UHGV virus genome: UHGV-0021275
DNA: 58,445 nucleotides
DNA from: a virus
Reading direction: 5' to 3' (one strand)
Shown: positions 34,861-36,725 of the stretch, in pieces
How the letters are laid out: each line of letters opens with the position of its first letter
How positions within the stretch are numbered: the stretch's first letter is position 1
Notes under the pieces: model-generated
Seen by the model: the letters and a program-made list of their open reading frames with translations, nothing else
Database searches by the model: none
Told to the model about the DNA's origin: nothing
Position numbers and translations under genes: made by a program

Positions 34861-35442
34861 TCATAGGGTTTGCCAGTGCCAGACAATACAAGATATGTGT
34901 GTCGCGGAGCTTGACTCTGGATATATGTCATCCAGCCCGCCGCTTTCGCTGGGACCGCGAGCTATTTGCAATAGCTTGTTATTATAAATAGTTCTGACGT
35001 GTGTCGGTATCTCTGTGAATGCAAAGGTGTAGCAGACACCGTGCCGCCCTGTCCCGGTATCTGATATATAATCATGTATGACGTTATATGGTACAGGTGT
35101 GCCATCACTTTTACACGGGATGCATGTAAGTGATACCTGAGACAGCAATGCCGGAGAAAGGCTTTGCTTGCGTATAGTGTTAGTAAATTTCCAATATACA
35201 CCGCGTCCGAGTTTTCCACATGCAGATTCTGCAGTGATATCGTCAGGCCAGGCTAATCTCAGCGCATAAGTCGAGGATTGTCTTGCGCGTTTTTCCGGTG
35301 TGGGTGCGAATAGACCGTCATCGTTTCTTGTAATAATGTTGCCGCTATTTGTGGATATGGGGATAACGCGCGGGGGTAGCGTTTCGCCGGGCATTAGCGG
35401 TGTATGTGTTGAGTCGTTGAGAACAATAGGTGTCTTTTCCAT
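34861..35442 (-). CDS. Hypothetical protein, orphan gene divergent from the late arm
   Basis: Internal ATG (MEKTPIVLND...) of track ORF 34861-35478 with AGGAG RBS, 193 aa. Lies alone inside the regulatory region; sequence looks more AT-rich than neighbours. Confidence 0.55.
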   Translation of the reverse strand: MEKTPIVLNDSTHTPLMPGETLPPRVIPISTNSGNIITRNDDGLFAPTPEKRARQSSTYALRLAWPDDITAESACGKLGRGVYWKFTNTIRKQSLSPALLSQVSLTCIPCKSDGTPVPYNVIHDYISDTGTGRHGVCYTFAFTEIPTHVRTIYNNKLLQIARGPSESGGLDDIYPESSSATHISCIVWHWQTL

Positions 35443-35579
35443 ATACGCTCCTAGCTTATTTAGTGCGGATAGTAGCAATAATATTATGGTTGCGCGTAAT
35501 GCGCACGCAGTGTTCCCGCGAACGACAGTGTTGTTGCATAATACACGCAGTAATGACCAATGCTGCAGGAGGACTACGG

Positions 35580-36725
35580 ATGAAAATACAGCCTGTAATT
35601 TATGATGCTGGCGAGCATCGCCCTATTAAGAATGGTGAGCAGATTTCTGGTAATGATGTGCGTGTGTCGTCTGACGCGGATAACATTATTGCGGTATCTT
35701 CCGGTGACGGCGGCTTGTATGCGAAGCCTGAAGTGACTACGTCTACAACCGTCAGAATGTCCGGCGTCGGGAGTGCAGATACCCCGATTTCCGCTGAAGT
35801 TATTTGCGCTCCTGATACGAAGTATGAGGTTAATGCACTGGCCGAGACTTCTGCTGGTTTGATGGTCGCACGTAATGACCTCCGTGACTTTGATGTGCGA
35901 ACTACGCAGTCTGCAGGACGAGGCCAGGAGGTCACGGTTACGCCGGGTATGGCTTCTGACGTACATATCTGGAATGAATTATTGATACTGAATGGCGCTC
36001 CCGGAAGTACTTTTATTGTAAATCTGGCACCTATTGGTCATGACCAGTACCAGGCTAAACGTCTGCGTATCGCATGGAATATCAGTGGTTCTGCGCATAA
36101 CACTGACCCAATACGACTTAAGTTTAAAACATCACTAGGTAAACTTATAACGCCAGCCGGTGTGACGGTAGATAGTGAGTGGTTCGAGCTTAGGGAGCTG
36201 TTTGATCGGGTTGTTGTATACGATTTATATTTGTTCCATAGCGGTTCTCACCCCTTGTTGTTACTTATGACACAACCGCCGTCTGATTCGTATGTATTTG
36301 AACGTGTGTTGACTGTATCTGATAGTACTACTGTTCCGGGGAAAATGGTTGTATCGCTACTGGAGTTACCGTGTGACTATGTTGGATTCTCTTACCGGAC
36401 TGAGATGTACCTGCAGGCGCGACTAACGTCACCATCTGGCACAGCTTACATTTCTAAGGTTACTTCTCATTTTGCGGGTTTCGCACCGGAAGATGTGCGC
36501 AGTATTGAACTATCACCGAAGAGTCGGATATGGACATGGCAGCGATGGAATGAGGGCATAATGACTACCCGGACGTCAGATGGCGTCGGATACGGCAGTA
36601 TGGCTTTCGCAGATGTGACTGTTGATATTCCATACACTCTTTCGTTCCCGGAATCCAGCGGTTCTGTTGAGTTTCGTTTGTTTGTGACGATGACACGTCT
36701 GACAAACAGAAAGCTCACACAGTGA
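35580..36725 (+). CDS. Hypothetical protein (381 aa), first plus-strand gene of the right arm
   Basis: ATG 35580 preceded by GCAGGAGG (internal start of track ORF 35430-36725). No recognisable motif. Confidence 0.65.
   Translation: MKIQPVIYDAGEHRPIKNGEQISGNDVRVSSDADNIIAVSSGDGGLYAKPEVTTSTTVRMSGVGSADTPISAEVICAPDTKYEVNALAETSAGLMVARNDLRDFDVRTTQSAGRGQEVTVTPGMASDVHIWNELLILNGAPGSTFIVNLAPIGHDQYQAKRLRIAWNISGSAHNTDPIRLKFKTSLGKLITPAGVTVDSEWFELRELFDRVVVYDLYLFHSGSHPLLLLMTQPPSDSYVFERVLTVSDSTTVPGKMVVSLLELPCDYVGFSYRTEMYLQARLTSPSGTAYISKVTSHFAGFAPEDVRSIELSPKSRIWTWQRWNEGIMTTRTSDGVGYGSMAFADVTVDIPYTLSFPESSGSVEFRLFVTMTRLTNRKLTQ

What the first reader, a model, noticed from the sequence alone, without database searches (positions are those of the whole stretch)
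34861..36725. Divergent orphan gene pair inside the regulatory region (193-aa minus-strand gene and 381-aa plus-strand gene) with no recognisable function
Two substantial genes with good RBSs sit back-to-back (34861-35442 minus, 35580-36725 plus) within the otherwise non-coding switch region. They are separated from both the early arm and the packaging genes by non-coding DNA and terminator-like structures, and are flanked by the GCGCAWTGCGC palindromes. Neither protein shows any motif recognisable by eye, and the minus-strand gene looks more AT-rich than its surroundings. The position and isolation are typical of accessory cargo (defence, anti-defence or host-interaction module) rather than core functions.
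Basis: inference. Interest (0 to 1): 0.6.

Follow-up and report, generated by a model that had tools for sequence, protein, structure and literature searches.

The report
Swappable phage tail-fibre gene pair
The two "orphan" genes are most likely alternative receptor-binding tail fibres of an uncultured E. coli gut phage: they share one N-terminal cap (probably the attachment end) and carry different, rapidly exchanged host-recognition tips, so they are ordinary in kind but belong to no annotated family.

Summary
Both genes are real and lie at the stated coordinates: 34861-35442 on the minus strand (193 aa) and 35580-36725 on the plus strand (381 aa). Pfam, PHROGs and PADLOC find nothing, but the genes are not orphans and probably not defence cargo.

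They are partial paralogues. Both begin with the same ~50-aa N-terminal cap, found at residue 1 of about 60 protein clusters. p381 adds one fibre repeat unit. That repeat matches the solved long tail fibre of phage 7-7-1 (9rkv_M, E 8e-8) and the tailspike of phage Milano (8fqc, E 6e-7).

The C-terminal domain of p193 matches the C-terminus of a protein in the tail-fibre gene cluster of Avunavirus myophages (28% identity, E 6e-13). It also occurs on other N-termini in SU10-portal-type contigs.

Relatives share 98-100% identical terminase and portal, yet this slot holds one to three cap-bearing genes of 193-535 aa on either strand. It is never empty, and recombination joints fall at the cap/tip boundary. 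dN/dS is 0.24-0.64 here against 0.02-0.05 for core genes.

Best reading: modular receptor-binding fibres (confidence about 0.75). Virion presence and the receptor are untested. This is a new member of a known kind.

The parts
34861..35442 (-). p193 gene (193 aa): N-terminal cap plus a ~145-aa C-terminal domain, with no shaft repeats
   Evidence: ORF; homologues; RBS seen
35299..35442 (-). Codes for the p193 N-terminal cap (aa 1-48), shared with p381 and ~60 other protein clusters
   Evidence: DNA homology to L003 (98%) resumes at 35296, i.e. exactly at the cap/C-domain boundary
34864..35298 (-). Codes for the p193 C-terminal domain (aa 49-193). This is the exchangeable tip, with conserved ACGxxGxGVYW...PCxxDGT...PTH
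   Evidence: Alignment A7. 28% identity over 148 aa, E 6e-13, to the C-terminus of the Avunavirus 593-aa tail-fibre-cluster protein. pN 0.43 against L003, compared with 0.047 in the cap
35443..35579 (.). 137-bp divergent intergenic control region. Contains CAATAATATTATGGT (35476-35490), the palindrome-like TGCGCGTAATGCGCA (35491-35505) and TGCATAATAC
   Evidence: The blocks are conserved in relatives. The same exact 15-mer lies 83 bp upstream of TerS (37685-37699)
35580..36725 (+). p381 gene (381 aa): cap, one fibre repeat unit, then a ~285-aa all-beta C-terminal region
   Evidence: ORF; homologues; AF2 model is all-beta with pLDDT 52
35580..35870 (+). Codes for the p381 cap (aa 1-50) and one repeat unit (aa 51-97: TVRMSGVGSADTPISAEV...NALAETSAGLMV)
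   Evidence: Profile A5 hits 9rkv_M (E 7.6e-8) and 8fqc_P1 (E 6.3e-7)
36300..36722 (+). Hypervariable C-terminal tip of p381 (aa 241-381)
   Evidence: Against L003, aa 1-240 are identical while aa 240-381 have pN 0.088. dN/dS is 0.2-0.7, against 0.02-0.05 for TerL and portal
36728..36738 (.). GCGCATTGCGC palindrome immediately after the p381 stop. It is one of 6 such sites bracketing the locus (34210, 34314, 34718, 34768, 36728, 37077)
34836..34855 (-). GC-rich hairpin followed by UUUAU, 5 nt downstream of the p193 stop. Possible terminator
   Evidence: z-score only -0.86
36851..37141 (+). Conserved 96-aa gene that always accompanies the cap-bearing genes, on either side of them. Function unknown; a fibre assembly or adaptor role is only a guess
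   Evidence: No Pfam or PHROG hit
49510..50781 (+). 423-aa Cys-rich protein of the tail module that contains the same fibre repeat unit
   Evidence: A5 HMM E 1e-4 among 599 window ORFs, with the alignment shown
48202..48894 (+). SU10-type adaptor protein, a candidate docking platform for the fibres (inference)
   Evidence: PF24175 E 1.2e-14. The SU10 adaptor carries the fibre dock domain (PMC9509320)

Best explanation
p193 and p381 are two alternative or co-displayed receptor-binding fibre proteins of a short-tailed E. coli phage. Each begins with the same ~50-aa N-terminal cap. I infer that this cap anchors the presumably trimeric protein to the tail, for example to the SU10-type adaptor or the nozzle. 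p381 then has one beta-repeat shaft unit. Each protein ends in a different C-terminal domain that I infer binds a host surface receptor. The locus is a cassette site. Recombination at the cap/tip boundary, and at conserved intergenic elements, replaces the tips or whole genes and changes host range while the rest of the virion stays constant. The two genes are probably driven from the shared 137-bp divergent control region, which carries the same 15-nt element found upstream of the terminase operon, so I expect them to be expressed with the late genes.

Shown: paralogy of the caps, homology of the repeat and of the p193 tip to tail-fibre proteins, cassette behaviour, and fast evolution of the tips.

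Inferred: presence in the virion, trimerisation, docking partner, receptor binding and expression timing.
For: (1) Shared N-terminal cap. BLASTP of p193 against p381 gives 29% identity over 48 aa, E 3e-5. The cap HMM matches at residue 1 in 82 of 121 family sequences. Its positions 26-52 recur internally as a repeat, up to 14-16 copies per protein.

(2) The cap-plus-repeat profile hits two solved trimeric virion RBPs. These are the phage 7-7-1 long tail fibre gp015 (9rkv_M, E 7.6e-8) and the phage Milano tailspike gp124 (8fqc_P1, E 6.3e-7). The match lies in or next to their N-terminal tail-binding modules.

(3) Repeat-bearing relatives include a 2726-aa protein with a Phage Tail Collar domain and tail-fibre PHROGs, and annotated tail fibre proteins of Rhizobium phages.

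(4) P0035 has the same cap fused to a C-terminus that matches the C-termini of annotated tail fibres of Pseudomonas, Salmonella and Acinetobacter phages.

(5) The p193 C-domain matches the C-terminal 150 aa of a 593-aa protein inside the Avunavirus tail-fibre gene cluster. It also sits on other N-termini in SU10-portal-type 63-kb contigs, again next to the terminase genes.

(6) Cassette behaviour. With TerL, portal and MCP 98-100% identical, the slot holds 193(-)|381(+) in the window and L003, 304(-) 302(-)|381(+) in L001 and L002, and 303(-) 302(-) 252(-) with no p381-type gene in L015. Sister clades have 535(+) or 499(+), and L010 has 397(+) 339(+). The slot is never empty. DNA homology breaks at the cap/tip boundary.

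(7) dN/dS is 0.24-0.64 against 0.02-0.05 for TerL and portal, and the change is concentrated in the C-terminal tips.

(8) The only other gene in the genome that resembles a fibre is a 423-aa tail-module protein carrying the same repeat. The tail genes are invariant; the 277-aa protein is identical in 6 contigs.

(9) The p381 model is all-beta, and jelly-roll, TNF, C1q and tail-fibre tips appear among its fold matches. This is weak evidence.
Against: There is no direct evidence that either protein is in the virion or binds a receptor.

The AF2 models are poor (pLDDT 52 and 40), so the fold matches carry little weight (TM about 0.2).

The C-terminal region of p381 has no homologue outside this phage group and no PDB match.

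The Avunavirus link rests on gene-cluster annotation, not on experiment.

The position is atypical for fibre genes: upstream of the terminase genes, at the early/late divergence, with p193 on the early-arm strand.

p193 has no shaft, and its cap is only ~48 aa, which is very short for an anchor.

The sigma-70 promoter scan shows no enrichment, so the expression timing is unproven.
Confidence: 0.75

Rival explanations
1. Virion-attached fibres whose main role is not primary receptor recognition. Examples are head or neck decoration fibres, auxiliary whiskers that aid reversible adsorption to glycans or mucus, or fibres with a small enzymatic tip.
For: The homology evidence shows fibre-like virion proteins, not receptor binding as such. 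A separate 423-aa tail-module protein with the same repeat could be the primary RBP. p193 is very short. The locus lies outside the tail module.
Against: Cassette exchange and fast-evolving C-terminal tips are the signature of host-range determinants. The slot is never empty. The tail-module genes are invariant, so nothing else is visibly adapting to hosts.
Confidence: 0.14
2. Non-structural accessory cargo: a defence, anti-defence or superinfection-exclusion module expressed inside the cell.
For: The locus is at the early/late boundary next to anti-restriction ArdA and other variable early genes. GC content is slightly low. Content varies among close relatives. There are no family annotations.
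Against: No PADLOC hit. The repeat and one C-domain are homologous to tail fibre and tailspike proteins. At least one family member is present in every relative. Both proteins are all-beta, with no signal peptide or membrane segment visible in the sequences.
Confidence: 0.07
3. The divergent pair is a regulated switch between alternative fibres. The palindromic operators in and around the 137-bp intergenic region would decide which fibre is made, giving two virion types from one genome.
For: The arrangement is divergent, with conserved palindromes in the intergenic region and on both flanks. Both proteins carry the same cap, so they may compete for one docking site.
Against: There is no invertible segment or recombinase, and no evidence of mutually exclusive expression. 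Relatives have the cap genes in tandem on one strand (L010, L015), so divergence is not required.
Confidence: 0.04

Closest known systems
Long tail fibre gp015 of Agrobacterium phage 7-7-1 (PDB 9RKV) and tailspike gp124 of phage Milano (PDB 8FQC)
   Same: They share the ~45-aa repeat unit (xTVxhSGxGSxxxPhxAxV...NxL....GL), with E 7.6e-8 and 6.3e-7 to the cap-plus-repeat profile. [quoted passage not shown]
   Different: Those are 587-aa myophage proteins with a central beta-helix, which was not detected here. Their N-terminal anchors are unrelated to the cap, and their C-terminal domains are unrelated by sequence. Only one unit is shared with p381, and only the half-unit inside the cap with p193.
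593-aa protein of the Avunavirus (Vequintavirinae) tail-fibre gene cluster (phage 19-1-2 UJQ87488.1; Av-05 Av05_0078/0079)
   Same: Its C-terminal ~150 aa are homologous to the p193 C-domain (28% identity, E 6e-13), and the same repeat units occur near its N-terminus. It lies among annotated tail fibre genes.
   Different: It has a different N-terminus and a long middle region, sits on a myovirus chassis, and its function is annotated rather than demonstrated.
Fibre docking in Kuravirus SU10 and T7-like podophages (modular N-terminal anchor with exchangeable C-terminal RBD)
   Same: The window encodes an SU10-family adaptor (PF24175). In SU10 the first residues of the fibre proteins dock on the adaptor and the nozzle. 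The logic of a conserved anchor with a swappable tip is the same. SU10-portal-type contigs carry the p193-type tip next to their terminase genes.
   Different: The cap-plus-repeat profile has no sequence similarity to any SU10 or T7 fibre chain in the PDB. The fibre genes here are upstream of the terminase genes rather than in the tail module, and one is divergently transcribed.

Membership tests
Phage receptor-binding tail fibre / tailspike proteins (modular RBPs) | Sequence homology to proteins demonstrated to be virion tail fibres or spikes | tested here: met
   The repeat unit matches 9rkv_M and 8fqc_P1 (structures described). This covers only ~45 aa of p381 and the half-unit in the p193 cap.
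Phage receptor-binding tail fibre / tailspike proteins (modular RBPs) | Conserved N-terminal module combined with exchangeable C-terminal domains across phages | tested here: met
   The cap is found on many different C-termini. The p193-type C-domain is found on at least 3 different N-termini and phage chassis. Recombination joints fall at the domain boundary.
Phage receptor-binding tail fibre / tailspike proteins (modular RBPs) | Faster evolution than the core virion genes, concentrated in the distal (C-terminal) part | tested here: met
   dN/dS is 0.24-0.64 against 0.02-0.05, and the tips are far more divergent than the caps.
Phage receptor-binding tail fibre / tailspike proteins (modular RBPs) | Encoded in the late or structural gene module | tested here: inconclusive
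   p381 heads the plus (late) arm, two genes upstream of TerS, and shares a 15-nt element with the TerS upstream region. p193 is on the opposite strand, and no expression data exist.
Phage receptor-binding tail fibre / tailspike proteins (modular RBPs) | Physical presence in the virion, trimeric fibre structure, and binding to a host receptor | not testable with these tools
   The monomer AF2 models are of low confidence, and no multimer prediction or proteomics is available.
Pfam/PHROG tail-fibre families (e.g. Phage Tail Collar PF07484, PHROG tail fibre groups) | Significant HMM match | tested here: not met
   No Pfam or PHROG hit for p193 or p381. Only distant repeat-bearing relatives carry PF07484.
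Beta-helix tailspike depolymerases | Right-handed beta-helix / pectate-lyase-like domain | tested here: not met
Anti-phage defence / anti-defence systems | Match to a known defence protein model, with presence/absence behaviour as dispensable cargo | tested here: not met
   PADLOC gives 0 hits for p193, p381, p96 and four paralogues. The slot is occupied by a family member in all 8 genome types examined.

The most novel reading that the evidence does not exclude
The cap-bearing genes form a multi-slot RBP shuffling system. The same short palindromic element (CAATAATATTATGGT, exact copies at 35476 and 37685) marks the edges of both cassette slots on either side of the 96-aa gene. It would act both as the late regulatory site and as the recombination linker that lets one to three fibre genes be inserted, inverted or moved. 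The divergent pair could then give a virion carrying two fibres on one docking site, or two virion types. This would be a defined and portable host-range cassette architecture in an uncultured gut coliphage lineage.
Probability: 0.15. Interest if true: 0.55.

Novelty: new member of a known kind. Interest (0 to 1): 0.35.

Why it matters
It turns two "hypothetical proteins" into the probable host-range determinants of a coliphage lineage. That lineage has no cultured representative in the INPHARED phage collection and no relative in IMG/VR, but it recurs in E. coli isolate assemblies and in human gut metagenomes.

It also defines three unannotated building blocks that would improve RBP annotation: an N-terminal cap of about 50 aa found in about 60 protein clusters, a ~45-aa shaft repeat shared with solved fibres, and a ~150-aa tip domain shared among three phage chassis. 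These blocks offer natural junctions for engineering host range. Conceptually the locus is an ordinary modular RBP locus. The unusual points are its position ahead of the terminase genes and its divergent layout.

Tried and rejected
- **Family libraries.** Pfam, PHROGs and PADLOC on both proteins gave nothing.
- **Nucleotide and translated searches.** Megablast and tblastn of the locus, TerL and MCP against the phage collection, E. coli complete genomes and IMG/VR found no close relatives.
- **PDB sequence searches.** The full family profile and both C-terminal-domain profiles gave nothing significant. Only the cap-plus-repeat profile worked.
- **A retracted idea.** An early multiple alignment suggested the two C-terminal domains share an LPC/GVYW core. 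Profile-profile comparison rejects this (probability 1.2%), so the paralogy is limited to the cap and repeat.
- **A hunch not supported.** I suspected the 339-aa cap protein of L010 was a beta-helix depolymerase from its sequence, but Pfam and PDB do not support that.
- **Non-coding searches.** Rfam and tRNA scans of the region were empty. Sigma-70 promoter matches were not enriched.
- **Other dead ends.** The word-indexed search with the p193 tip profile returned few hits, none with names. A literature search for PDB 8JOV found nothing relevant.

Full report
**Observation**

The window is a circularly closed phage genome of 58,445 bp, because a 2300-aa ORF runs across the window junction. The minus arm carries replication and early genes: primase-helicase, helicase, DNA polymerase, a ParB-like protein and ArdA. 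The plus arm carries TerS, TerL, portal, MCP, an SU10-type adaptor, internal virion proteins and lysozyme.

The two ORFs of the finding sit at the divergence point, exactly as described: 34861-35442 on the minus strand (193 aa) and 35580-36725 on the plus strand (381 aa). Both have strong Shine-Dalgarno sequences. GCGCAWTGCGC palindromes bracket them, with 9 sites in the genome against 0.11 expected and 6 of them between 34210 and 37087. These sites are syntenic in relatives.

Pfam, PHROGs and PADLOC find nothing in either protein. There are three minor corrections. A conserved 96-aa gene follows p381. Both genes have the same GC content (47.6% against 50.9% for the genome), so the minus-strand gene is not specially AT-rich. 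The two proteins do share a motif.

**What the proteins are made of**

The first ~48 residues of the two proteins are homologous (29% identity, E 3e-5; alignment). An exhaustive HMMER search of 1.84 billion representative proteins with the family profile found 97 clusters.

Dissection with a cap HMM shows two parts. Positions 1-25 (M.k.PvV.....H.PL..GdtL) occur only at N-termini. Positions 26-52 (ipvS.d.gN.l....dGLyv) are reused internally as a repeat. With the preceding segment (tv.lsG.Gt...Pl.a.V) this forms a ~45-aa unit present in up to 14-16 copies per protein. The cap sits at residue 1 in 82 of 121 family sequences.

The architectures are as follows:
- p193 is the cap plus a ~145-aa C-domain.
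- p381 is the cap, one repeat unit and a ~285-aa C-terminal region.
- The 302-304-aa paralogues in relatives are the cap, two units and a p193-type C-domain.

The two C-terminal domain types are not detectably related to each other (hhalign probability 1.2%).

**Links to known fibres**

- A profile of the cap plus repeat hits two solved structures and essentially nothing else. These are the long tail fibre gp015 of phage 7-7-1 (9rkv_M, E 7.6e-8) and the tailspike gp124 of phage Milano (8fqc_P1, E 6.3e-7). Both are trimeric RBPs. The matched segment (residues ~122-166) lies within or next to their N-terminal tail-binding modules.
- Repeat-rich relatives include a 2726-aa protein with a Phage Tail Collar domain and tail-fibre PHROGs, annotated tail fibres of Rhizobium phages, and a 709-aa protein at the end of a tail module behind a 1151-aa protein of tape-measure-like size.
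- P0035 has the same cap fused to a C-terminus that matches the C-termini of annotated tail fibres of Pseudomonas, Salmonella and Acinetobacter phages.
- The p193 C-domain matches the last ~150 residues of a 593-aa protein inside the Avunavirus tail-fibre gene cluster (28% identity, E 6e-13). That protein also carries the repeat units.
- The same tip occurs on a different N-terminus in SU10-portal-type 63-kb contigs, again beside the terminase genes.
- Inside the window, the 423-aa Cys-rich protein of the tail module (49510-50781) carries the same repeat.

**Comparative genomics**

The lineage has no isolate in the phage collection and no relative in IMG/VR. It does occur as ~59-62-kb contigs in E. 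coli isolate assemblies and in gut metagenomes, including Hadza samples.

Among close relatives TerS, TerL, portal and MCP are 97-100% identical. By contrast p381 is 94, 84 and 66% identical, and p193 is 54% and about 35%. Slot content differs from genome to genome:

| Genome | Genes in the slot (aa, strand) |
|---|---|
| Window, L003 | 193(-), 381(+), 96(+) |
| L001, L002 | 304(-), 302(-), 381/377(+), 89(+) |
| L015 (TerL 99.6% identical) | 303(-), 302(-), 252(-), 96(+); no p381-type gene |
| L004, L005 | 95(+), 535(+) |
| L006, L007 | 95(+), 499(+) |
| L010 (TerL 57% identical) | 397(+), 339(+), then gp49_66-like |

Every genome has at least one cap-bearing gene next to the terminase genes. 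None has an empty slot.

DNA homology maps place the breakpoints precisely. Against L003, homology stops after the non-coding DNA and resumes at 35296, which is the cap/C-domain boundary of p193. Against L001 and L002 it resumes at 35478. Against the sister clade it resumes at 37687.

Nei-Gojobori estimates give dN/dS of 0.24-0.64 for p381 and 0.47 for p193, against 0.02-0.05 for TerL and portal. Against L003 the first 240 residues of p381 are identical and all change lies in residues 240-381. In p193 the cap has pN 0.047 and the tip 0.43.

**Interpretation**

The evidence combines a conserved N-terminal module, fibre repeats shared with solved RBPs, tips exchanged between unrelated phage chassis, joints at domain boundaries, elevated dN/dS in the tips, invariant tail genes elsewhere and a slot that is always occupied. 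This is the standard signature of modular receptor-binding fibres.

I therefore conclude, at about 0.75 confidence, that p193 and p381 are two receptor-binding fibres of this phage. Several steps are inferred rather than shown. The cap is assumed to dock on the tail. The phage has an SU10-family adaptor, and in SU10 the N-termini of the fibres dock on the adaptor and the nozzle. The 548-aa protein 50754-52400 matches a hexameric virion protein, 8jov_A. The tips are assumed to bind surface receptors.

I also infer that both genes are expressed late from the 137-bp divergent region. Its conserved blocks include an exact 15-mer that recurs 83 bp upstream of TerS.

Several weaknesses remain. There are no proteomic or expression data. 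The AF2 models are poor, so the fold searches say little beyond "all-beta, jelly-roll-like". The p381 tip has no relatives outside this phage group.

**Rivals**

- A non-receptor fibre role such as decoration or auxiliary adsorption cannot be separated from primary receptor binding with these data (about 0.14).
- A regulated switch between alternative fibres is possible but has no specific support (about 0.04).

**Novelty and score**

This is a new member of a known kind. It is an unannotated RBP family with a new cap and two new tip domains, in an uncultured coliphage lineage, and its position ahead of the terminase genes with a divergent layout is unusual. It is useful for annotation and host-range engineering but not conceptually surprising. 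Interest is 0.35.

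Noticed in passing
window 34210-37087 (sites at 34210, 34314, 34718, 34768, 36728, 37077; also 5001, 40524, 54843): The GCGCAWTGCGC palindrome occurs 9 times against 0.11 expected, clustered around the fibre locus. Three copies are the longer CTGCGCAWTGCGCAG. The sites are conserved at syntenic positions in relatives. This is probably the operator set of an unidentified dimeric regulator.
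   Followed up: partly
window, ~20 sites, e.g. 8441, 17362, 26596, 27191, 30843, 35476, 37685, 53700, 57867: The palindrome CCATAATATTATGG gives 27 strand matches against 1.6 expected. Most sites lie at gene boundaries, and several overlap the start codon itself (17362, 27191, 47325, 53700). Exact 15-mers at 35476 and 37685 coincide with the points where homology to relatives resumes after the variable cassettes. It could be a promoter, a translational operator or a recombination linker.
   Followed up: partly
window 33680-34380: Iteron-like TTGAGCA/TGCTCAA repeats in both orientations flank an AT-rich palindrome (33991-34032) inside the 1.46-kb non-coding region. This is a candidate replication origin.
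   Followed up: no
window 56506-58445 joined to 1-4963: A 2300-aa protein spans the window junction, which shows the sequence is a closed circle or circular permutation. It carries an LPD38 domain and a YkuD L,D-transpeptidase domain (25.3 bits against a 23.4-bit cut-off), an unusual cell-wall enzyme for an ejection or internal virion protein.
   Followed up: partly
window 49510-50781: A 423-aa tail-module protein has a Cys-rich N-terminus and carries the same fibre repeat unit as p381. It is possibly the resident tail fibre or needle. It has no PDB or Pfam match.
   Followed up: partly
window 36851-37141: A 96-aa gene with no family match always accompanies the cap-bearing genes. It lies downstream of p381 here and upstream of the 499/535-aa fibre gene in the sister clade. 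It might be a fibre chaperone or connector.
   Followed up: partly
L015 6516-9653 (E. coli assembly GCA_014331165.1): A relative with 99.6% identical TerL lacks any p381-type gene and instead has three tandem p193-type genes of 252, 302 and 303 aa. So individual fibres are dispensable while the family is not.
   Followed up: yes
window 30851-32617: The early arm next to the locus encodes ArdA anti-restriction (31871-32617) and a YdcK beta-solenoid repeat protein (30851-31699). The latter is itself highly variable among relatives (49-80% identity).
   Followed up: no
window 52862-54660: Tandem paralogous virion genes of 277 and 316 aa both match phrog_37635. The 277-aa protein is identical in 6 independent contigs, including a Hadza gut metagenome.
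   Followed up: no
whole window: The phage lineage has no relative in the phage collection by megablast of the locus, MCP has no tblastn hit, and TerL is at most 33% identical. IMG/VR has no relative either. Yet the lineage recurs as ~59-62-kb contigs in many E. coli isolate assemblies, which suggests a carrier-state or plasmid-like lifestyle (ParB-like gene at 20206-21141).
   Followed up: partly
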